Assembly: GCA_964016885.1 (NCBI GenBank)
Contig: OZ024744.1
Coordinates: forward strand, 22,878,001-22,942,000
Length of the DNA: 64,000 bases
Direction of reading: 5' to 3'
DNA from: Eledone cirrhosa
Lineage: Eukaryota
Part shown: piece after piece, positions 4,647 through 49,529 of the stretch
Layout of the letters: every line of letters starts with the position of its first letter
Position numbering within the stretch: position 1 is the stretch's first letter
Notes under the pieces: model-generated
What the model was told of the DNA's origin: nothing
Seen by the model: the letters and a program-made list of their open reading frames with translations, nothing else
The model's database searches: none
Program-made: the position numbers and the translations under genes

Positions 4647-7600
4647 TTTGACTCTCAGTTATTGATGTTAGTTAACTGGAAAGTTTATTGAAATGAATAT
4701 CAAGCCACTACCTGCAGCCTCAGATATTCAGGACGTATCGGAGGGTTTTTGCTGTTCCCAGCAAGCATGCCTTTTGAAGCGTTCCAAAAAACGTGAAGGG
4801 GCCAATTTTCTTTAACCATCCCTGGAAACTTTTTGAGATAGTACCTAGTGCGCCTATGACAATCGGGACCACTTTGACTTCATGGCAGTTCCAAATCCTT
4901 TTTACCTCCCACTTTAAGTCCTGGTATCGGTTAATTTTCTCCCTCTCCTTCTCTTGCACTCTCGTATCGAATGGGCAGGCCACATCCACAATCAGGCACG
5001 ATCTTTTTTCTTTGTCCACAACCATCAGGTCAGGTCTATTGTGTTCCAGTTTCTTGTCCGTCTGTATCCTAATATCCCACAGCACCTTCACCTTATCGTT
5101 TTCTATCACCGACTCTGGCTTATGCTCATACCACTTCTCAGAATGTGGTAAATTGTTTACTTTGCATAGGTGCCAGTGGATCACCCTGCACATCACATCA
5201 TGTCTCCAGCCCTTATAGTGAGTCTGGGCTAGGTGTTTACACTCGGATACAATGTGAGCCACAGTCTCTTCTCTCTCTCCACAGATCCTGCACAGTGGGC
5301 TAGCCTCCTCCTTGTAAATATGGTGTTTCAACCACTTCGTTTTGAGGGCCTGCTCTTGCGCAGCCATTAACATTCCTACTGTAGCCTTTTTAAGGTCTCC
5401 TCTTTTCAACCAGTTCCATGTCTCTGGATCTCTGAATTCAGTTTTCTCAAAGAAGGTACTATGAAGGGATTTTTCCTGAAGGCTGCTCTTTCTCCTTGAT
5501 GTTATTTCCTCCTTGGACATCCCCTCTCCTTCAGTACAGTTCTGAGCATTGGCTCCTTACTATCAGTCACGTATTTGTGTAGGTTGTTTTTCTCCATCTG
5601 AACACAGTCCTCTATGATGATGAGACCTCTTCCACCTTCAGATCTCCTTAAGTAGAGTTTATCGACATCACTCCTCTTGTGGAACATGTTGTAGATAGTG
5701 AATAGATTCCTAGTCTTCCTATCCATTTCTTTTTGTTCAGCAACATTCCATCTCAGAATTCCCGCACTGTACCTAATAATAGACACAGCATCCGGAATTT
5801 ACTGCACTTATGGCATTCCTACTGTTCAGATGTGACTTTAATACGCTCCCTACTCTCCGAATGTATTCATTTCTTATCAATTCCTTCATTTTTTTGTTCT
5901 TGATGTCATCAGCCTCCAGAACACCCAAATACTTGCATCCTTCTTCAGTGTCAATTTCCTTTATCATCTCACCTGTTGGTACCTGGATTCCGTTACTTCT
6001 GCTCAATTTACCCCTCTTCGTCACAAGGACTCCACACTTACTAATACCAAATTGCATACATATATCATTGCTGAAAATACTGACAGTGTCAACAAGCACA
6101 TACAACTCCTTCTCAATCTTCCCGAAGAGCTTAAGATCGTTCATGAAGAGCAGGTGATTGATGGTAAGCCCTCCCTTTCCCAATCTGTATCCTGCTCTCA
6201 CTTTTCGCAGTGTACTGGTCAGGGGCATCAGGGCAAGGACAAACAACAGAGGGGACAGACTATCTCCCTGGAAGATACCTCTCTTGATCTTCACGCTTCC
6301 CAAGGATTCTCCAGCTGATGTTAACTCTATTTCCCAGGACTTCATACTTTTGCCCAACAACTGTCTGATGTTATCTGCCACCCTGAAGATCTCCAGGCTT
6401 TTGGTGATCCAAGAATGAGGCACCATGTCAAATGCCTTTTTGTAGTCTATCCATCCCATGGCAAGACCAGTGCGTCTCCTTTTGCAATTCCTCATTACCA
6501 TCTTATCAATAAGTAACTGGTCCTTTGTACCACGGGACTTCTTTCGGCATCCTTTCTGTTCGTCCGGTAACAAGTTGTTTGTGTGGTGGTGATGGTAGAT
6601 TTCCTCAGACATAATGCTTGTCAACAGTTTCCACATTACGGACAGACATGTGATAGGTCTATATTTGGTAACATCATTACCCTTGATTCGGTCTTTCATT
6701 ATCAGAACTGTGGTACCTTTTGTCAACCACTCTGGTACCTCACCTGACATCAAGCAGTCATTGAACATGGTTGTCAGTTTCGGGTGGAGGGATGTTATAT
6801 TTTTAATCCAATACCCCTGCACACCATCTGGGCCTGGTGATTTCCAGTTGGTTAGTTTCAACTGTGATACTCAAATCAGTTTGTTGGTGTGCCTGTTCAC
6901 TAATCTCCTTCTGTACTGTCTCAATCCACACTGCCTGGTCATTATGTTTAACATCCTGCTCCCATATTCCTCTCCAGAATGTTTTAGTTTGTTCCGCCCC
7001 AGGGATCAAGTCGTTGCCTCTTTCTTTCCCCTCAAGCTGTCCAAACAGCATCTTCTGGTTGTTGTCAAACATGCGGTTCTGTCTATACTGACTGACTGTT
7101 CTCGTATCGCCTGATTTTTGCACTCTTTGCTACAATGCGTTGCTTCAGTTCCTCTATGATAATATTTAGCTTTTTCCTCCTAGTTTTGTACTTTATTTCC
7201 AGTCTATTTTTAGTGTCTATGTTTTTTAGTGTCCCATTCAGTAGGGACTCAAGCTTTCCAATGTCTTTTCTCATTTCCCTGATTTGACCACTCAGTCGTT
7301 TCTTCCACCAAGGCTTGATCTTTCTTGTTTGTTGTTTCCTCTCGCTTTTATACCAAGTAATTTCCTCACCGTATTTGGTGTTGCTTTGAGGATATTGTTG
7401 CACTGGTGAAGGCTCCTCGCCTCAAGGTATTGGATGACCTTGTTTACCTTAGCTGTTGTTTCTTTTAACTTTTTCCTGTCCACAAATCTTAGGTTCATAG
7501 GTTTCCCACTATCATTGTTCAATTCATCTACCACTAAGTTTAGGATATCAACCAAATCTTGTCCTAGCCCGTCAGCATTCATCTCCTCAGTGGCCGTATC

Positions 7601-18120: not shown

Positions 18121-19110
18121 TGTCTCTTTTATTTGTCACCAGGGCATCAATGTGGGACAAGTACAAAGGGGGGAGTTTACAAAACAAGGCGTCCTCAATA
18201 AGGAGGAGGCAATAACAATATATAAAAATAAAATAAAATATAACAATAAATATAATTTATAACAAAGTCCTCAATAGAGAGGAGGCGCCTTGGGGGTCGC
18301 ACACACCCCCGAAAAAAAATGTGCAACCCTTTTCCTCAGGAGCACAGAGAAGGGGTGCTCCCTTGGTCTTTCATCTTCCTCACCTACAGTCTGATGTAGA
18401 GTGAAGGCCCATTCACACGGGTCATTCTCGCCACTTTCACTCATCTTTCAGAGAAACGGTTGGGGTGCAGCACCTCTCTCTCCATCCTGATCCTTCTTCC
18501 GAAATGATATCGGAAGAAACTGACCAGTTCTTGGCCAGAGAGAAAGGTGCCTGACCTCAGTCCTTTCAGACGCGTCCACCATACAACCTCTTTCGCCATG
18601 GCTATTACGCACAGAAACACCGCCTCTTCTTCGTTTTTGAAGAGGGGAGGCGGCTTGATCGTTACAATAGACTCGGTGGTCAACCGGATCGGTCCCACCT
18701 TTGACAGCAGTTGTTCGACATAGCCCCACAGATCGGCAATGCCCGAGCAGTGTACCAATGCGTGTGCAACGGTTTCCTCGTCGCACACGCATCTGGGACA
18801 GATCTTTTTCGAGGGGTCCCTACCCGGGCGCCCGTGTCTGTAGAGCCTTTCTTGAACGGGCAGAGCCCTCCTGTAGCACTGCCAGGCCAGGGACCGCTGG
18901 AAGTTATCCATGGGTCCCGGGCTGAATGTCCTACCGAACAGGTTGGCCAGTTCGTCTTCCTCCATGCCTAGGGCTTCTCCGAGGGCGTCGTCACACCTGC
19001 TAACCACCAGCCCTCTATAGAATGACGAGGTGGATTCTCCACTGACAGCCGGGTCCGCCTGCCAGAGAGCCGTGAACGTCTGGGCACACTCTGTGTGCCA
19101 GGCGCCCAGT
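18121..19110 (-). mobile_element. 5'-truncated Tx1-like LINE copy flanked by (GATA)n on both sides
   Basis: Close match to the 3' 1 kb of 11352-15741. tagatagata at ~18111-18120 and atagatagatagataga at ~19114-19130. Confidence 0.92.
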
Positions 19111-27390: not shown

Positions 27391-30300
27391 AACAACAGAA
27401 AAAACAGAGACAACACCCCTGAAGAACACAGCCCCACTCCATCCCACTCCATCAAACACTACCACAAACACACTCACCGAAATACCACCACCACACAACA
27501 TACCACTACCCCACACACCTGACGATGATTATTCATCGACGGATGAAGCTGCTTCTCCTTCTTTAATTGAAGAAGAGGGAGAGCCGCGGAAATCTAAAAA
27601 CAAAAAAAGAGACACCACAAAACCCCCAAAACTCCAATCACCAACACCAACACACAACCACAGACACAAACAACAATACAAACAACACCACAGTCAAACA
27701 TCCCCCTATCAGCAAAACCAACACCAACACCACCCCAAACACAAGCACCCACCATAAAAAGAAAACTCTCGGACGAACAACAAACTAAAACAACACAACA
27801 AAAACACAAACAACAATACGCATACATCAACACAAACAACAAGAATTTGATGGAGGTCATCTCCCAAAACCCCAAGGTGGAGACGGAGGGCAAAACTTTC
27901 GTCAAGGCAGAATCGTCTCCACACCTTAAACTTATAAGGGTTTCTATGGAGACCTATAGTGACCTAAAAAATAAATGTTCACAGGACGTGGGCAACCCCT
28001 GCCAGAAACCCATCAACCGCGTCCTGTTAAAATGTTTCCCCACCAACACCCCATCCAGCACACAACTGGAGATTGAACAACCCGATCTCCAGGAAATGAA
28101 AAGGTAAGTGCACCTTTCGTCCTTTTTCTCCAACTTTTCTACACCAACATGGCTAGTTTACGAGTTGGAACCGTGAATGTGCGCGGCCTAGGGATGCCCT
28201 GGAAACAGGGCCAACTTTTAAACGACCTTAGGTCACACAGGCTCCACAACAGGCAGCAACTAACCCCCATCTTCGACGACTTTGAGATCTACACATCTCT
28301 CTGTCAGCCAGGAGGTGGAGTGGCTGTCATGTTTCGGAAGAACCTGGACGTCGGAATACAGCAAGTACACTTGGACCCGGAGCGTAGACTGGTAGTCCTA
28401 GACGTGAACAGTATTGGAGGTGGAGCCTTCAGACTGGTGGCCGTTTATGCCCCGACCGGGCAATCACAATCACGGCCAAACTTCTTTAGGCGTCTAGAGT
28501 CTTTTCTGGGAACGTCTCGCTCCTTACTTTTAGTGGGGGACTGGAATGGTATCCTAGATGCACGATGGGACTATGTAGGAGCATGTCCCAGGAGAGCGGG
28601 GTGCAACAGCCTCAAAACTTTAATCGGCCAATTCCAACTGGCCAATAGGTATCGACTGGATTTCCCGACTGCACCACAGTGGACGTGGGCAAAGCGCAGT
28701 GGGACATCTAGATCGTATTTAGATAGGTTCTACATTAGAGAAAGGGACAAGGAGATGTTAAGCTGTCCACGAATGGACATGGTTGCCTATTCAGATCACA
28801 AGTTAGTCGTCTGCTTAGTCAACCTTGATAGAATACATAGACAGGGTCCCGGATACTGGAAGCTGAACGTGTCGTTGCCGGCACGTAAAGCTTACAGTGA
28901 ACGGATAAGTAGACTAGTCAAGCAACAGTTAACGGGAGCCATCGTCAACAATATATGGTGGTACTCTCTCAAGAAAGCAATAAGAATAGAATCGATAGGG
29001 TTTATCAGAGAGTTAGCCGTAGAGAAAAACAAAATAGAAAGAGAACTAGTAGCCAAGGTAGAGGAGGCACTTAGAAGTGGCAACGCGGCTAGAGTGTTAG
29101 CGTCGAGAACGGCACTGGACCAGTTCTTCGATGCGAAACACGAAGGCTGCGTGGTCAGAAGCAAAACACGTGCTCTAGGAAACGAAGGAGCGAAAGCTGT
29201 CAGCTGGGCCCGAGTGGTGGAGGCAAAAAGTGGCAACAAGTCCACGATTCGGTCTTTGAAAGACCAAAACGGACGCGTGCTACTTGACCCCAAGCAAATG
29301 TGCGCGGCCTTTCAGCGGCACTTTGCGCGACTGTTTGAGCAGAACGACGGTGAGCCGGACGGGGCAATGGACTTTAGTTCATACCTCGACGGCCTGCCGT
29401 GTCTCTCGAACACGGACGCCGAGTTCTGCGAAAAACCGATCACGGACATTGAGATACGGGACGCTCTGGGCCGCTGCGGGAAACGCAAGTCACCCGGTCT
29501 AGATGGTCTACCCTACGAATTTTACATAGGCATGCCGGATTTGTTCTCTGGCGTCCTCGAACCCGTCTACTGCAATTGGCAGCAGAACGGGAGAATTCCC
29601 AGTTATGCAGGCAAGGGCGTAGTAACGCTGATCAGGAAAGATGAGAACAGGGGGGACGAAATTAACAACTTCAGGCCCATAACTCTACTCAACACAGAGT
29701 TAAAGATTTAGGCCAAGGTGCTAGCGACAAGGTTGGCGCTAGTCGTCGAGACCCTGGTAGGGAAAGCGCAAACGTGTGCAATCCCGACCAGGTCCATACA
29801 CGACAACCTCCACCTCATGCGATACATCATAGAGAGGGTGGGTAGTAATCCCAGCTTCGGTGGGGCTCTGATCAACTTGGATCACTCTAAGGCATTCGAT
29901 AGGGTCGACCATCGATACTTGGAAGCGGTTCTCAAGGCGGCCGGTTTCAGTCCCGTGTTCAGAGGATGGATCGAGGCGATGCACACCAGCATCTGCTCGA
30001 GGGTCAAGGTGAACGGCTACCTATCGGAGCCGTTCGCAATCATGTGTTCCATTCGACAGGGGTGCCCTCTCTCCTCCATTCTGTATGTATTGACTCTAGA
30101 GCCACTACTGCGGAAATTGGAGCTGTTGCAGGGCATCCCTCTAGAACCGGGACTGCGCAAAGCGGCGTCGGCTTATGCCGACGAGATCACGGTAATGGTG
30201 TCGAGCACCTCGGAAATCGGGGTGATCGGCAACTTACTGAAAGAATACGAAACGCTGACGGGAGCAAAACTAAACCGGGACAAGTCTGTTGGTTTGCAAC

Positions 30301-31799
30301 TCGGTAAGTGGAGAGGAAAACCGATGACGTTCGATAGCGTCGTTGGACGCTGGACGGACGAACTAGTGAAATTGCTCGGGGTCTGGTTCGGTCCAGACCT
30401 CCAGGTGGAGAAAAACTGGAACGAGGTCACGGCTAAAGTGTTTGCACTCACCCAGAAGTGGGCAGAGTGCAAACTGACCTTGAAAGGTCGAGCAGGGGTG
30501 GCGAACACTTACATAGCGTCCGTCATCTACTACCGTTTGACTTTCATGCCTTGTCCCCGTGAACCCCTCGTCAAGATGGAACGCTTGCTTTTCCAGTTTC
30601 TGTGGAAGAAGCAGGCTCCGCTGGTGAGGAGATCCGTCTGCTGTCAGCACCCATCCAACGGATGGCTGGAAATGCCATGGCTGATGATGCGCAAACATGC
30701 GCTGAGGCTGCGGCATCTCCAGGAATTCCTCACCGACCCCCAACCGGTGTGGGCACCGTTTGTGAGACAGGCTTTCCCACAGCTCATCTCGCTGACGGAG
30801 CTGCAGTCCTGGGTGAAGAAATGACCGAAAACGATGGGCGCCTGGCACATTGAATGCGCTCAGGCGCTCACAGTCCTCTGGCAAGCGGGCGCAGCAATCA
30901 GTGGAGACTCTACTTCGACATTCTATAGAGGGATTGTACGTTACAAGGGCGACGACGTGGTCGGCGAGACTCTGGGCGTCGAAGACGATGAGCTCACCAG
31001 TCTGTTTGGTAGGACTTTCCGCCCGGGACCTATGGACAACTTCCAGAGGTCCCTGGCCTGGCAGTACTACCGAGGAGCTCTACCGTTTCGTGACAAGGTC
31101 TACAGGCACGGAATGCCCCGGTAGGGATCCTTCCAAGAGGACGTGTCCAAGATGCGCGCAGGAAATTGAAACAGTCCTGCACGCAATTGTACACTGCCCG
31201 GGCGTAACCGACCTGTGGAACTATTCAGAACTGTTGTTGCGTATGGGACAAATCCAGTTGACTGCCGAGTCCATAGTAAGGATCAAACCGCCAGCCTCTT
31301 TCAAAAACGAAAGAGAGGCGGTTTTCCTCTGTACGGTGGCTATGCTGAAAGAAGTTATATGCTGGACGAGGTTGAAAGGACTGAGGACAGATGCCTTTCT
31401 CTCCGGACAACAATTGATTCCCTTCTTTAAGTATCACTTTAGAAGGAGATTCAGAGTGGAGAGAACAGGCATTGCACCCCAGTAAATTTACTGAAAGGTG
31501 GGTGAATGAAGCGAAAATGACCCGAGTGTTTGGGCCTTCTCTGTATATAAGCCTGTAGGTTGAGGAAGAAAGCAAAAGGAAGAAAGGAGCACTTGCACAA
31601 CACGCTCTTGGAGTTGAGGGTTGTTTTATCGACGGGGTATTAAACAACCCATTTGTGGCGCCTCCCCCCCCCCCCTATTGGGGATTTCGATTGTTGTAAT
31701 TGTTTGTTTTTATATATTTTACACGACTGTATGTAAAATCCCCGGCATGTCTTTGTATTGTCCCCTTTTCTTGTGCGCCCTTGTGGCTAATAAAGAAAT
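27391..31799 (+). mobile_element. Near full-length, decayed Tx1-like LINE (divergent subfamily) flanked by (TATC)n
   Basis: ORF1 remnants at 27.4-28.1 kb. ORF2 from 28149 is broken by stops at ~29709, ~30822 and ~31122 and by frameshifts. tatc repeats at ~27355-27390 and ~31798-31816. Confidence 0.92.
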
Positions 31800-33049: not shown

Positions 33050-34571
33050 TTAAGAGTACACGGCATCTGTGTAATGTTCAGCCACTTAGATATTAAATAT
33101 CCGGGCTGGATGTTCCGGTTTTGGGAGAAGAGGAACATCTGCCACTGGAACCGCCATAGGTTTAGCAACCTGTGACATTTTATGTCATTTTGGTTGTTAT
33201 TTAGTCCGGCCAGACAGTTCTAATCGGGCAGATTCAGACCTTTGGTCAGACAGTATCAGTATTGATCACGAATACTATCAATCTTTCTAGGGTAGTACAA
33301 TACATGCAACACTCTAGGCCAACCTAGGGGTGTTCCCAAATGGTGAATAGGGGAGCGACTTGTCTACGTAGGAGTTAACGGCAAATATAGATATTCGTTG
33401 GACAATATATAGACTGTTTTGTAAACAATAACACTTAAGGGTCACCCACGTCAGGGTCACAGTTGAGACTACGTGGATGTGTTGCAGGGAGATGTGCAAT
33501 CTGGATAAAGAGAGAGCCATAATAACGGAAACTCTCCAGGCTCAAAGAAGAGGTTTACTAAGTGATAAAAAGTTTTACTGCTATAGATTTAGCAATCACA
33601 CACACACACACATATGCACACATACGCACACACACACACACTCGCCTCGCACGCACCCCCATATATATATATATATATATGAAAGAATCGGGACCTCGAC
33701 GGCTGAGCTCTTGCTATTTCAACAGCGAATTCGGAAATTGCTGTTGAAACGGCTCAGCCGGCTGGATCCCGACTCTTTCATATTATCACACTCTACAGCC
33801 CCAACTCTTTTATTCTTTTACCTGTTCCAGTCTGTGTTAGCTGGCCATTGGTGTAAGAGGGAGTTTGTTGCTGCTGCCTTTAGGTTACGTCCTCACCATG
33901 CAGATCTCTCAAATTTCTTGGCATCTTTTTTGAAGATTTGAGGGCCTTTAAACCCCAGGCTTTTACAATATCTGCTTTACCTTGACACCTTTCCATTCCC
34001 ATTCCTCAACCGACTCCACCACCCACATCAGATCCTACCAACCCACCCACCCACAACTTACTGTCACTCTTCCCCCTAACCTTCCACTGTCTTGTTCCGA
34101 GCGTTCACTCCTCAGTAGAGGTCTGCGTTTCATACATTCTCGCCTATTCCCAATTCCTCCGCCACCTGTGAAGACGAAACCATGATTTTAAGATTTAGTC
34201 TCATTACTTGGCCAGACTTTTCACTAGACATGGATACTCCTTATCCTGATCCAAGCTGCCCTCACCCGCGCTCGAGGCGTCATTCGCACCACTGCCTTTA
34301 CTCCACGCTACCCCACCCCTACCTACCGACTGCTCTCCCCTTTACCTACCACCCTTCTACCTTGCCCCTCCAGAAGACGGTCCTCTGCCTACAGTCTGAT
34401 CCCTCCCCCTCACCTGTATTTTCCTTAATCCCCCCAACACATCTGGATCCCACCCCAGTTCCTGACACCGCTGCCATACATGCAGATTTATCTCCAACAC
34501 CACCACCCGTTTCCGTCCCAATGACCAGTCATTTCTGTGTTAGGAACCGCTTCATCTGCACCTGCACAAAC

Positions 34572-36731
34572 CTTGTCTATGGACTCCATTGTAGTCTGTG
34601 TGGATCTATCTACTTGGGTGTTGTCTATGAACTCCATTGAGGTCTGTGCGGAGTTATCTACTTTGCTCTTGTCTTTGGACTCCATTGTAGTCAGTGCGGA
34701 GTTATCTACCTTGGTCTTGTCTTGGAACTCCATTGTAGTCTGTGCGGAGCTATCTACCTTGGTCTTGTCTATGGACTCCATTGTAGTCTGTGCGGAGTTA
34801 TCTACCTTGGTCTTCTCTATGGACTCCATTGTAGTCTGTGCGGAGTTATCTACATTGGTCTTGTCTATGGACTCCATTGTAGTCTGTGCGGATCTATCTA
34901 CCTAGATCTTGTCTATGGACTCCATTGTAGTCTGTGCGGATCTATCTACCTTGATCTTGTCTATGGACTCCATTGTAGTCAGTGCGGATCTATCTACCTT
35001 GATCTTGTCTATGGACTCCATTGTAGTCTGTGCGGATCTATCTACCTAGATCTTGTCTATGGACTCCATTGTAGTCTGTGCGGATCTATCTACCTTGATC
35101 TTGTCTATGGACTCCATTGTAGTCTGTGCGGATCTATCTACCTAGATCTTGTCTATGGACTCCATTGTAGTCTGTGCGGATCTATCTACCTTGATCTTGT
35201 CTATGGACTCCATTGTAGTCAGTGCGGAGTTATCTACCTTGGTCTTGTCTATGGACTCCATTGTAGTCTGTGCGGAGCTATCTACCTTGGTCTTGTCTAT
35301 GGACTCCATTGTAGTCTGTGCGGAGTTATCTACCTTGGTCTTCTCTATGGACTCCATTGTAGTCTGTGCGGATCTATCTACCTAGATCTTGTCTATGGAC
35401 TCCATTGTAGTCTGTGCGGATCTATCTACCTAGATCTTGTCTATGGACTCCATTGTAGTCTGTGCGGATCTATCTACCTTGATCTTGTCTATGGACTCCA
35501 TTGTAGTCTGTGCGGAGTTATCTACCTTGGTCTTGTCTATGGACTCCATTGTAGTCTGTGCGGAGCTATCTACCTTGCTCTTGTCTATGGACTCCATTGT
35601 AGTCTGTGCGGAGCTATCTACCTTGGTCTTGTCTATGGACTCCATTGTAGTCTGTGCGGAGTTATCTACCTTGGTCTTGTCTATGGACTCCATTGTAGTC
35701 TGTGCGGAGCTATCTACCTTGCTCTTGTCTATGGACTCCATTGTAGTCTGTGCGGAGCTATCTACCTTGGTCTTGTCTATGGACTCCATTGTAGTCTGTG
35801 CGGATCTATCTACCTTGGTCTTGTCTATGGACTCCATTGTAGTCTGTGCGGAGTTATCTACCTTGGTCTTGTCTATGGACTCCATTGTAGTCTGTGCGGA
35901 GCTATCTACCTTGGTCTTGTCTATGGACTCCATTGTAGTCTGTGCGGAGTTATCTACCTTGGTCTTGTCTATGGACTCCATTGTAGTCTGTGCGGAGCTA
36001 TCTACCTTGGTCTTGTCTATGGACTCCATTGTAGTCTGTGCGGATCTATCTACCTTGATCTTGTCTATGGACTCCATTGTAGTCTGTGCGGAGCTATCTA
36101 CCTTGGTCTTGTCTATGGACTCCATTGTAGTCTGTGCGGAGTTATCTACCTTGGTCTTGTCTATGGACTCCATTGTAGTCTGTGCGGAGCTATCTACCTT
36201 GGTCTTGTCTATGGACTCCATTGTAGTCTGTGCGGATCTATCTACCTTGATCTTGTCTATGGACTCCATTGTAGTCTGTGCGGAGCTATCTACCTTGGTC
36301 TTGTCTATGGACTCCATTGTAGTCTGTGCGGAGTTATCTACCTTGGTCTTGTCTATGGACTCCATTGTAGTCTGTGCGGAGCTATCTACCTTGGTCTTGT
36401 CTATGGACTCCATTGTAGTCTGTGCGGATCTATCTACCTTGATCTTGTCTATGGACTCCATTGTAGTCTGTGCGGATCTATCTACCTTGATCTTGTCTAT
36501 GGACTCCATTGTAGTCTGTGCGGATCTATCTACCTTGATCTTGTCTATGGACTCCATTGTAGTCTGTGCGGAGCTATCTACCTTGGTCTTGTCTATGGAC
36601 TCCATTGTAGTCTGTGCGGATCTATCTACCTTGATCTTGTCTATGGACTCCATTGTAGTCTGTGCGGAGCTATCTACCTTGGTCTTGTCTATGGACTCCA
36701 TTGTAGTCTGTGCGGAGCTATCTACCTTGGT
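34572..36731 (+). repeat. 48-bp minisatellite, 45 units, encoding (LVYGLHCSLCG[SVA]IYL[GDA])n
   Basis: 2160 bp = 45 x 48. ORF 34722-36761 is open through the array. One TGA in unit 2 (34638-34640). Confidence 0.95.
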
Positions 36732-37514
36732 CAGGTTGGACGTCGTCAACAGATTTATTGAACATCTTAGGGACATTCAGGTCGACAACCCGACTCCGAT
36801 CTCCTGACATTTTCGAACCACTGGCCACTACACACGCTACCTCAGTGTCTTCGGGCTCTCACATTATGCCAGACTCCCCCTAGCGGAGAGAACAACTTAT
36901 TTTCTCCTTACAACCTTCTTCCTCCTCACCTTAATACGCCACCCATCTTCCTTTAATCGTCTCTGTCATATACTCTCTATCACACACTAAACATACTTCC
37001 TTAACCTATGACACATACTTGTTAATATATTCACACATATCACTGTTAGAAACGTTTCACGTACACATTATAAACTTCAACATACACACGTTATAATTTA
37101 TCATACCCTCACACATACTAATCCACTCTTCTCACCAACATGCGGTACACCACCGATATTTTACACACACACAAAACTACTTCAACACGCATATACAGTA
37201 CACACATTCAAACTTACATTTACTCACATATACATGTCTACTACCACTAACATATATATATACACATACACACACTATCTTTGTTACTTTATTCAATTTA
37301 CCTTTAAATTTCACACACGTTTAAACATACACTTACATTCACACATATAACAACACTAATACATACACATATAACGACACTTACACTCACACTAATAACG
37401 ATATTAATACACACACTACACTTGGCGTTCCAACTCGTTACCATGACTACCCGACGGCATTCTTGTTTTCCCTCTTCATTTCCGATTTTTCTGTTTCTCC
37501 ATTGTGATCTATTT

Positions 37515-37552
37515 GTTCTCCTGAAAAAGGACTTAAGCCCAAAACGTCGAAC
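37515..37552 (+). ncRNA. Degenerate minimal hammerhead at the Penelope 3' end
   Basis: gttctc-CTGAAAA-aggacttaagccc-AAAAC-GTC-gaac. Two core G residues are mutated, so it is probably inactive. Confidence 0.5.
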
Positions 37553-47605: not shown

Positions 47606-49529
47606 TATTATCTCTTTCTCTTAATTTCGAGTATATTTTTTTGACCGGCCACCTTCCTGGTCGCAAGGTTGTAAAAGAAAAGAAATTGTCATCCCTTGAA
47701 TCGCAAGAATGTTTTGTAAATTTTGAAACTGCCAGCTAACGCAGCCATTTGTAGTCCATGAATTAGGGAGTTGCGCTCTTTGTCCGCATATCCAAGTTCA
47801 GTCATACTTTGGTCCAAGCGGGCTGGTATATAACCCGTAGCTCCAATAATGATAGGTATGAAGCTAAAGGTGTATCTTGGATACTGGATCTGCAAACTCC
47901 TAATCAATGGTCCGTAGATGTCCTCCTTCTCCTGTATTTTTCTGACAACGTTTACATCAAGTGGGCAGCTGATCTCCACAACAGAACACGTTTTCAATGT
48001 GTGATCCCAAACAACAATACTAGGCCGGTTGTGCTTTAATTTGGTGGCAGTATTCCTTAGTGCCATCTGTCTCAATATATTCTTCCTCGTTTGTTGTTAA
48101 TTTTGTTTTCCGAAGTGCGTTCCAGATGGTTCTAGCTATCCCATCGTGTCTCATGGGGAGGTAGTAGCGAGATGACATTCTTTCGCAGCTGGCAACAATG
48201 TGGCTTACATCCTCGATCTTTGTTTTACATAGTCTATATTTATTGTCAGCTGCTGGCCCTCCTCTTTTGTGCAGCAGATATTTGGTAGGGAGTTCTTGTT
48301 CCTGTATTGCATAGAGATATCCCTCAAGGTGTGATGTCATAAACTTGTCGGAACTCCATGCCAGGCTTTTTGAGTGGTTTATCCCCTCTATGGTCTGTGT
48401 TTTACGTCTCAAGTATCAATGCACAACTTTTTCTGTAAATTGGTCAATTTTTTCACCTTGTTTGAACATTGAATAGGATCTTCCGATTTCTCTGGTTGAG
48501 AGATTTATATCAGGCTTTATTCCATATCTCTCCTTCAGATCAGTCGCTATTCTAATGATATATTTTTTTTCATGCTCATAAACCTGGGCAAGATGGTTGC
48601 CAACCTTTTTCCTCTGTTGAAGGTGTTGCTTCAGTGTTACTATCCGGGTCTCATATGATGTTAATATTGATTTTAGACCCCGGCCACCTTCCTTGCGTGA
48701 GAAGTATAGCCTATCCACATCACCATTGATGTTAAAGTTCCCAGTAACACTGAGAAGTTTGCGAGTTCTAACATCCATCTCACTTAGTTTTTGCAATGAC
48801 CAGTTCAGCAGGCCAAATGTTGGCGTTAGAATTGGCACAGCATAAGTATTGTGGGTAATGTATTTGTTGTACGCTGACAGTTCTGATGACCATATTTTCT
48901 TTAATCTTCTGATGTATTCAGTTCTGGTTCTCTCCTTATAAATGGATCCATCATATCTGACATTCTCATCCTGTCCAAGATATCTGTAGTTGTCACCTGA
49001 CTGTAGAGGTTGTATTGTCAGGCCGTTCATCTCTAGATTTCTAGAGGTGGGCACATTCTTCCACGTTTTACTGCCAAATATGCACACTTGGACTCACCAA
49101 ATTTCATTTTGATGTCTTGAAAATTGTGTAATCAGGTCCAATTGTTTCTTGATGTCATTGATATTTGGCCCATACAACTTTAGGTCATCAACAAAGAAAA
49201 GATGGGAGATACTTCTGGACCCACTTCTTTGTCCACCTTGTTTCCTGAGTAGGTAAGATAGTGGATTTAGTGAGAGAACGAAGAGTAGCACTGACAACCT
49301 ATCACCCTGAAAGATGCCCTTCTGGTAATGTATCTTATCAGTCTTAACTTGCTCCTTCTCACCTCTAAGGATCAAATTGGTGTACCAGTTCTTGGTCAGA
49401 CGTTCAACAGCAGCTACCAGTGGTTGTGGAACTTTGGCTAACTGTAAAGCCTTAACAATCCACCCATGAGGTACACTATCAAATGCTTATTGATAGTCCA
49501 GCCACACCACAGTCATGTTTCTGCGATTC
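47606..49529 (-). mobile_element. Second R4/Dong-like RLE LINE, frameshifted, cut off by the gap
   Basis: GIFQGDRLS, LFFVDDLKLY, YRYLG, DVDRLYFSRKEGGRGL, AIQEQ, RLCKTKIEDVSHIVASC, RHD, HNRPSIVV...VEISCP. Confidence 0.85.

What the first reader, a model, noticed from the sequence alone, without database searches (positions are those of the whole stretch)
34572..36731. GIY-YIG/CxxC nuclease signature amplified in frame 45 times inside an RT-less Penelope element
Seen: the 48-bp unit is exactly the segment encoding the two signature strands of the nuclease with the Neptune-type CxxC insert (LVYGLHCSLCGSIYLG). Upstream FICTCTN and downstream GQVGRR/RFIEHLRDI..HF..GH complete the domain. The array is 45 x 48 bp with no net frameshift and is open for 679 codons. 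Variation is almost confined to two codons (S/V/A and G/D/A), with H-C-x-x-C retained in nearly all units and sub-patterns of variant order recurring. Inference: most simply a young minisatellite, probably seeded by microhomology at the unit ends (accttg). If expressed, it would give a ~43-repeat HCxxC metal-binding beta-repeat protein born from a transposon active-site motif. A stop in unit 2, the lack of an evident in-frame ATG after it and a downstream frameshift argue against function in this copy.
Basis: partly seen in the sequence, partly recalled or inferred. Interest (0 to 1): 0.75.

Follow-up and report, generated by a model that had tools for sequence, protein, structure and literature searches.

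The report
Minisatellite inside a dead Penelope retrotransposon
A 48-base piece of a broken jumping gene's nuclease has been copied 45 times head to tail, and its changes look unselected, so it is likely an ordinary minisatellite rather than a new protein gene, although the same piece was also amplified in a second, separate element family.

Summary
The array is real: 45 x 48 bp at 34572-36731, no indels. It repeats the strand-CxxC-strand hairpin of the GIY-YIG nuclease in a dead Neptune-like Penelope element whose reverse-transcriptase core (about 1.26 kb) is deleted.

The repeat-protein idea is not supported. The 17 distinct changes split 3 silent, 13 amino-acid and 1 stop, as expected without selection. 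The 706-codon frame after the stop has no ATG, and three of six frames are open. The His of 'HCxxC' is a change from the family's Arg. All units share four changes from the family majority, so the array grew in DNA after the element decayed.

Two extras. The array's 3' end plus 0.7 kb is duplicated (97.7%) next to a 54-kb satellite 6.8 Mb away. A second family carries an independent 7 x 48-bp array of the same hairpin; a rough chance expectation is 0.004-0.13, so a duplication hot spot is possible but unproven. The scan's index showed no look-alike on other DNA.

The parts
33988..34135 (+). Remnant of the N-terminal part of the Penelope-like ORF (aa 73-121 of the intact relative in L084); the element's true 5' end was not defined
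   Evidence: tblastn 51% identity, E 4e-9; DNA match to L102 and L108
34135..34145 (+). Junction of an internal deletion of about 1.26 kb that removed the RT core
   Evidence: In L102 and L108 the two flanks lie 1.2-1.3 kb apart with RT between them; none of 56 genome matches extends more than about 8 nt across the junction
34139..34571 (+). Decayed RT thumb, linker and start of the endonuclease, with stops, frameshifts and a second deletion of about 90 nt
34451..34483 (+). Decayed CX4CxxC linker motif (first Cys changed, one stop, out of frame with the array)
   Evidence: the motif is intact in relatives L016 and L084
34572..36731 (+). Minisatellite, 45 x 48 bp; the unit is the first strand, CxxC loop and second strand of the GIY-YIG domain; units 1-6 are more diverged than units 7-45
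34638..34640 (+). TGA stop in unit 2; it ends the only ATG-started in-frame ORF (ATGs at 34182, 34230, 34521)
34641..36761 (+). 706-codon open frame without methionine (43 whole units plus flanks)
36732..36953 (+). Rest of the endonuclease, broken by a 5-nt deletion near 36746 and later stops
36668..37368 (+). Tract duplicated at G000:C28:29.735 Mb (L021, minus strand): end of one unit, one whole unit and 637 bp of flank, 97.7% identical over 685 bp
37329..37418 (+). Second small tandem expansion (24-bp period) in the non-coding 3' part, absent from the sister copy and five family copies
37521..37545 (+). Decayed hammerhead-ribozyme core in the 3' terminal region; both conserved boxes are mutated
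   Evidence: matches the twice-present terminal motif of L084 at 85-89%; the core is intact in L004 and L084
37625..37664 (.). (TA)/(TG) microsatellite at the 3' border of the element

Best explanation
The array is a single-locus 45 x 48-bp tandem repeat inside a broken Neptune-like Penelope retrotransposon, and it likely grew without selection by DNA-level slippage and unequal exchange long after the element died. Shown: the element lost its RT core and carries stops and frameshifts on both sides of the array. Shown: all 45 units share four changes from the family majority, and multi-unit blocks recur exactly. Inferred: one 48-bp segment of the nuclease was duplicated after most of that decay, then expanded and was homogenised from unit 7 onward while units 1-6 aged. 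The long open frame is inherited from the coding ancestor because 48 is a multiple of three. Inferred: the 3' end of the array plus 0.7 kb was later copied into another dead family member beside a 54-kb satellite, by ectopic repair or gene conversion.
For: 17 distinct changes in the nuclease frame: 3 silent, 13 amino-acid, 1 stop, against 25-28% silent expected without selection (its automatic tally read one two-base codon change as a stop, corrected here to amino-acid). The Gly of the YIG motif is lost in 19 of 45 units. No Met after the stop; three of six frames of the unit are open. Flank divergence from the family majority is 10.4% (31/299), against a mean of 11.5% among 39 distinct copies from 62 loci; units 7-45 differ pairwise by only 3.7%. 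The four changes are present in 45 of 45 units. An 8-unit block recurs exactly, and even lags 2, 4, 6 and 8 are enriched (p 0.009-0.03 each, uncorrected). An exact unit 20-mer occurs 40 times in the array and once elsewhere in 3.0 Gb. None of 25 family loci with a unit hit has two units. Unrelated minisatellites in this genome have open frames of up to 3167 codons. Pfam found only retroelement domains among 91 other window ORFs. No database protein matched at E<=0.001 among 7997 candidates scored.
Against: A second, independent 48-bp array covers the same hairpin in another family (L139), and a rough chance expectation for it is only 0.004-0.13. No in-register microhomology or stable hairpin explains the 48-bp period in either array. 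Units 1 and 2 differ at 9 of 48 sites, so the first duplication may be older than the bulk. With 17 changes the selection test is weak. Length variation between individuals and transcription were not testable.
Confidence: 0.85

Rival explanations
1. The GIY-YIG hairpin segment of these elements is a recurrent hot spot for 48-bp tandem duplication, for a DNA- or chromatin-level reason not yet identified. The arrays would still be neutral, so this adds to the best explanation rather than replacing it.
For: Two arrays in different families (units 28/45 identical in register; one-unit regions 63% identical) have the same period and registers one codon apart; each lies in a dead copy. Rough expectation of such a second array: 0.004-0.13, and 0.0008-0.38 with the density interval. 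Database proteins P0003 (58 aa x about 7) and P0001 (52 aa x 3) are in-frame arrays of neighbouring nuclease segments from other assemblies.
Against: The search used a 16-residue repeat, so it could only find in-frame arrays of this period and segment. Unrelated 48-bp minisatellites are common here. The chance figure rests on 3 arrays in 269 kb and on assumed window sizes, period shares and copy numbers. P0001 and P0003 have other periods. No sequence feature favours lag 48.
Confidence: 0.2
2. The array is transcribed and translated, through a splice into unit 3, a CTG start or read-through of the TGA, into a Cys-rich metal-binding repeat protein that is being kept.
For: 706 open codons with CxxC in every unit after unit 2. 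AlphaFold2 gave a confident beta model for 16 units (best pLDDT 88.9). Upstream in-frame ATGs exist. Selenocysteine at TGA is reported for Naiad elements (PMC8557442 abstract).
Against: Neutral spectrum of changes. The first ATG inside the array opens another frame that stops after 108 codons. The five models range from pLDDT 21 to 89, the unit does not form its native hairpin, and there is no PDB match at E<=0.001. [quoted passage not shown] The CxxC is half of a CCHH site whose histidines lie beyond the frameshift. No SECIS family appeared at E<=1 in loci covering the array and 1.8 kb downstream.
Confidence: 0.04
3. The array was written by the telomerase-related Penelope reverse transcriptase copying one 48-nt stretch of template repeatedly during insertion.
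For: Penelope RTs are related to telomerase (PMC8557442, listing). Same-family copies show different internal deletions, which could reflect template jumps. The same site recurs in two families.
Against: All 45 units carry four changes from the family majority, about as many as single-copy units have accumulated (mean 5.6 of 48), so they were copied from decayed DNA unless later homogenised. Variants are inherited in blocks rather than scattered. In L139 the seven units are 99% identical inside a copy whose flank is 9.5% diverged.
Confidence: 0.05
4. The array, or most of its length, is an assembly artefact.
Against: 14 distinct unit types in a structured order. Contig pieces of 293-367 nt span the left junction and the first units without differences in 3 of 3 contig sets (one sample). 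The sister locus holds the end of a preceding unit.
Confidence: 0.03

Closest known systems
Transposon-derived minisatellites (Alu-, B1-, MaLR- and Ogre-derived; review PMC6947457, passages read) and retrotransposon-internal arrays that expand into satellites (PMC7004042, abstract read)
   Same: A short internal segment of a dispersed element is duplicated and then expanded by slippage, conversion or unequal crossing-over; unit and array size are in the minisatellite range.
   Different: The source here is a protein-coding active-site motif of a Penelope-like element, kept in frame. The flanking 5-10 bp repeats expected by the model cited in the review are not in register.
Neptune/Nematis-type EN+ Penelope-like elements (PMC8557442, passages and section 6 read)
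   Same: RT, CX2-5CxxC linker, C-terminal GIY-YIG with internal CxxC, a terminal hammerhead-like core and microsatellite borders; intact in relative L084, decayed in the window.
   Different: This copy lacks the RT core and has an array within the nuclease. Clade placement rests on motifs only; no tree was built.
Non-LTR retrozymes derived from Penelope-like elements (bioRxiv 10.64898/2026.07.22.740005, passages read)
   Same: Tandem repeats born from a part of a Penelope-like element.
   Different: Retrozyme units come from the terminal repeat, carry a hammerhead in each unit and are dispersed; this unit is from the coding region, has no ribozyme and is at one locus.
DRT2 repetitive 'neo' gene made by reiterative reverse transcription (PMC12039810; title and start of abstract seen in a search listing, the gene name and details recalled)
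   Same: A long in-frame repeat ORF next to reverse-transcriptase sequence.
   Different: Here the repeat is chromosomal, carries inherited variants and post-dates the decay of the element; there is no evidence of RNA-templated synthesis or of function.

Membership tests
EN+ Penelope-like element | Single ORF with RT and GIY-YIG endonuclease | tested here: met
   Relative L084 has an 828-aa open frame: RVT_1 E 3e-4 and GIY-YIG E 0.07, both below Pfam cut-offs; library hit P0007 passes the RVT_1 cut-off. The L084 nuclease model matches I-TevI (probability 1.00, rmsd 2.0, E 7e-3). The window holds colinear remnants.
EN+ Penelope-like element | CCHH motif and catalytic residues in the nuclease | tested here: met
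   C50, C53, R68, E71, H72, H87 and H93 are at least 90% conserved in the 83-sequence alignment. In the window they are present but split by a frameshift and a stop.
EN+ Penelope-like element | Hammerhead ribozyme in terminal pseudo-LTR | tested here: inconclusive
   A CTGA-N-GA...GAAA core occurs twice in L084 and once in L004, and is mutated in the window. Rfam reported no hammerhead at E<=1 in 10 loci. Only the core was checked, not the stems.
EN+ Penelope-like element | Intact RT in this copy (autonomy) | tested here: not met
   About 1.26 kb of RT core deleted
Neptune clade | CX2-5CxxC linker upstream of a C-terminal nuclease | tested here: met
   CX4CxxC in L084 and L016, decayed in the window. 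The feature is shared with Nematis (PMC8557442).
Neptune clade | RT phylogeny with reference Neptune elements | not tested
   No named reference sequences were fetched; the supplements of PMC8557442 were not read.
Minisatellite / VNTR | Head-to-tail unit of tens of bases, up to about 100 copies, one locus | tested here: met
Minisatellite / VNTR | Variant units inherited in blocks; more diverged edge | tested here: met
   Exact 8-unit repeat; units 1-6 average 3.5 differences from unit 45 against 1.3 for units 7-45
Minisatellite / VNTR | Length polymorphism among individuals | not testable with these tools
   Only one sample held the stretch; the one reduced-representation run laid gave 1 partial read
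Non-LTR retrozyme | Hammerhead in every unit; dispersed arrays | tested here: not met
Protein-coding repeat gene | Start codon leading into the repeat frame | tested here: not met
   No Met in 706 codons; upstream ATGs end at the unit-2 stop. A splice entry is not excluded.
Protein-coding repeat gene | Purifying selection on the frame | tested here: not met
   3 of 17 changes silent against 25-28% expected; low power
Protein-coding repeat gene | Transcription and translation | not testable with these tools
   No suitable RNA data were available to lay

The most novel reading that the evidence does not exclude
The two-strand CxxC hairpin of Penelope nucleases is a recurrent source of in-frame 48-bp arrays (two independent families here), and this one is read into a 43-repeat cysteine protein, a new repeat gene caught at birth from a transposon active site. 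The hot-spot half alone has a probability of about 0.2; the probability given is for the whole claim.
Probability: 0.03. Interest if true: 0.7.

Novelty: new member of a known kind. Interest (0 to 1): 0.22.

Why it matters
As a neutral minisatellite it is a clear, datable example of a known process: the birth of a tandem repeat from a transposon, with the ancestral single-unit state preserved in many family copies. It also shows that long open frames in minisatellites are not evidence of genes. The one point worth following is the independent 48-bp array on the same hairpin in a second family. If a genome-wide map confirmed a hot spot, it would give a testable case of how minisatellites start without flanking microhomology, and a steady source of in-frame cysteine repeats for new genes.

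Tried and rejected
No RNA holder was listed for the stretch; this says nothing about expression.

A word-indexed protein search with a 105-aa family nuclease found nothing among longer proteins; the exhaustive search found 1541 at E<=0.001. The protein atlas gave no result.

Descent of the 39-bp satellite from the 48-bp unit: alignment not significant (p 0.13 against 2000 shuffles; 1.6% of 697 control 48-mers score as high), and its far end is not Penelope sequence. Only a short motif is shared at the junction.

Other arrays returned by the repeat-protein searches: 10 of 11 fetched regions, and the 11 loci checked (9, 2), had no nuclease match. The 51-bp satellite family, whose translation resembles the unit, is treated as chance picked out by the query.

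ACCTTG microhomology and DNA hairpins were rejected as the cause of the period. Pfam hits of the 706-aa frame to zinc-ribbon families are sums over many weak repeats, and were not taken as evidence.

A direct genome-wide count of hairpin duplications by period could not be run, so the hot-spot question stays open.

Paper searches listed no paper on a minisatellite from a Penelope nuclease segment. The library lacks most subscription papers, and no supplements were read. 'Octopus' was used as a search word on a guess only; the organism was not identified.

Full report
Observation. Tandem Repeats Finder gives 45.0 copies of a 48-bp unit at 34572-36732, 95% matches, no indels. Cutting the window into 48-mers confirms 45 units of 14 types, ending at 36731. 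The unit reads LVYGLHCSLCGAIYLG, in frame with FICTCTN upstream and GQVGRR downstream. Unit 2 has TGA at the first cysteine. Two other frames of the unit are also open, giving 457- and 448-codon stretches. Contig pieces of 293-367 nt from three public runs span the left junction and the first three or four units with no differences; these runs are one sample and may be the assembly's source.

The host element. The window lies on contig C28 of a 3.0-Gb genome. The flanks belong to a dispersed family: 38 further matches at 73-88%. A related element has an 828-residue open frame with RT, a CX4CxxC linker and a C-terminal nuclease (L084). A model of its nuclease, folded with 82 library relatives, has pLDDT 91.5; its best structural match is the GIY-YIG nuclease I-TevI (probability 1.00, rmsd 2.0, E 7e-3, short of the 0.001 mark). 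The 16-residue unit corresponds to strand 44-50, the CxxC loop and strand 56-61 of that model. The window copy matches residues 73-121, then jumps to about 557. Same-family copies L102 and L108 hold 1.2-1.3 kb with the RT core between those two points, and none of 56 genome matches extends more than about 8 nt across the junction. So the copy is RT-less by a deletion that appears to be its own. It also has stops and frameshifts upstream, a 5-nt deletion and a stop downstream, and a mutated hammerhead-like core.

Classification. PMC8557442 (passages and section 6 read) states that the two cysteines within the GIY-YIG core are part of a CCHH motif found in all canonical EN+ elements. The upstream CX2-5CxxC linker marks Neptune and Nematis. 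The element is therefore Neptune-like by its linker and domain order, not by the amplified CxxC. No tree was built.

Timing. Of 62 loci, 39 distinct copies at 70% identity or more were aligned. They diverge 11.5% from the family majority, and the window's right flank 10.4% (31/299). All 45 units share four differences from that majority; single-copy units average 5.6 (n=28). One of the four turns the majority Arg codon into His, and 7 of 27 single-copy units show His too, which I infer to be CpG decay. Units 7-45 differ pairwise by 3.7% and the whole array by 5.0%. An 8-unit block recurs exactly and a 4-unit block three times. This points to duplication of already decayed DNA followed by turnover. 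Against a wholly young origin, units 1 and 2 differ at 9 of 48 sites.

Selection. There are 17 distinct changes from the majority unit. In the nuclease frame 3 are silent, 13 change the residue and 1 is a stop; 25-28% silent is expected without selection (the script counted the second base of a two-base codon change as a stop, which I corrected). The chance that at most one change hits His, Cys or Cys is 0.20. The conserved Gly of the YIG motif is replaced in 19 of 45 units. The test has low power but shows no constraint. The in-frame ATGs at 34182, 34230 and 34521 end at the unit-2 stop. The first ATG in the array opens a different frame that stops after 108 codons.

The hypothetical protein. 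AlphaFold2 on 16 units gave a beta model with pLDDT 88.9, but the five models scored 89, 87, 57, 35 and 21. Where the model breaks its strands, it does so at unit residues 6-7, one long strand per unit, and not as the native hairpin. Foldseek found no match at E<=0.001. PMC11795689 (abstract read) reports such confident beta-solenoids for meaningless perfect repeats. No database protein matched at E<=0.001 among 7997 candidates. Other minisatellites in this genome have open frames of up to 3167 codons. Among 91 other window ORFs Pfam found only retroelement domains, so no host exon was seen nearby; a long intron is not excluded.

Seed. The two ACCTTG copies lie 42 bp apart. In-register identity at lag 48 is 4 of 12 at best, against 8 of 12 at lag 42, and the region has no unusually stable DNA hairpin. 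The cause of the 48-bp period is unexplained.

Sister locus. An exact unit 20-mer occurs once outside the array, 6.8 Mb away on the same contig. There, 15 of 16 bases matching a unit's end, one whole unit identical to unit 45, and the right flank follow a 39-bp satellite. Identity is 97.7% over 685 bp, then falls to about 72%. The motif spanning the 5-nt deletion was found only in these two copies. The satellite runs 54.5 kb, about 1400 units, and is not significantly related to the 48-bp unit (p 0.13). I infer that the array's 3' end was copied into another dead family member by ectopic repair, joining the satellite at a short shared motif. The reverse direction is less likely, because the sister holds part of a preceding unit and unit 1 shares the array's four changes.

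Recurrence. Searching the genome with six units as protein (150 of 26,245 candidates scored) returned a second true case. L139 on contig C2 has seven 48-bp units reading HVVYALRCSLCRSLYI, between FTCIST and GQTGRR. It belongs to another family, with relatives at 81-90%. Its units are 99% identical in a copy whose flank is 9.5% diverged, and 7 of 11 relatives had a unit hit, each once. The register is one codon earlier than in the window, and the two units share 28 of 45 bases. Ten of 11 fetched regions, and 11 loci checked later, had no nuclease match. A hairpin pattern matches 1490 places against 73 for the control. With 3 complex arrays in 269 kb of background and assumed windows, period shares and copy numbers, the expected number of such second arrays is 0.004-0.13, with a wider interval of 0.0008-0.38. 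That is suggestive only, since the search could find nothing but in-frame arrays of this segment and period. Library proteins P0003 (58 residues, about seven times) and P0001 (52 residues, three times) show that nuclease segments of Penelope type are tandemly amplified in other assemblies, with other periods.

Comparison. Minisatellites born inside transposons are well documented (PMC6947457, passages; PMC7004042, abstract). Penelope-derived tandem repeats are known as retrozymes (bioRxiv 10.64898/2026.07.22.740005, passages), which this is not. Five paper searches listed no report of an array from the nuclease hairpin; no supplements were read. The scan's own index had no look-alike.

Verdict. 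A real, likely neutral minisatellite in a dead Neptune-like element (confidence 0.85), and a new member of a known kind. Interest is 0.22, most of it from the unexplained recurrence at the same hairpin.

Noticed in passing
L139:2993-3329 (-), G000:C2 about 14.352 Mb: Independent 7 x 48-bp in-frame array of the same GIY-YIG hairpin in another Penelope-like family; it lies in a frame of about 200 codons with an upstream ATG that seems to come from adjoining sequence.
   Followed up: partly
L021:5616 to L111, G000:C28:29,735,600-29,790,100: 54.5-kb array of a 39-bp satellite; all 311 exact 35-mer matches are on one strand, consistent with a single locus. It abuts the sister copy.
   Followed up: partly
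window:49730-64000 and L093-L094: 34-bp satellite that continues for at least 20 kb beyond the window.
   Followed up: no
L138, L140, L141, L144, L148 (contigs C22, C25, C27, C4): Multi-locus 51-bp minisatellite family with open frames up to 3167 codons; one frame resembles the unit, but no nuclease flanks were found.
   Followed up: partly
window:11620-15078 (-): 1153-codon open frame of an AP-endonuclease/RT LINE; more broken copies at 4723-6870, 18444-19109, 28077-31485 and 48023-49486.
   Followed up: no
L084:2523-5006 (-): Penelope-like element with an 828-codon open frame and a hammerhead-like core on both sides; part of a young, abundant family.
   Followed up: partly
proteins P0001, P0003: In-frame tandem arrays of Penelope-type nuclease segments (52 aa x 3; 58 aa x about 7) in other public assemblies.
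   Followed up: partly
window:33677-33783: 32-nt inverted repeat (84% complementary) beside the microsatellite upstream of the element; probably a small separate repeat.
   Followed up: no
window:25440-25883: 7 x 63-bp tandem array, 97% matches.
   Followed up: no
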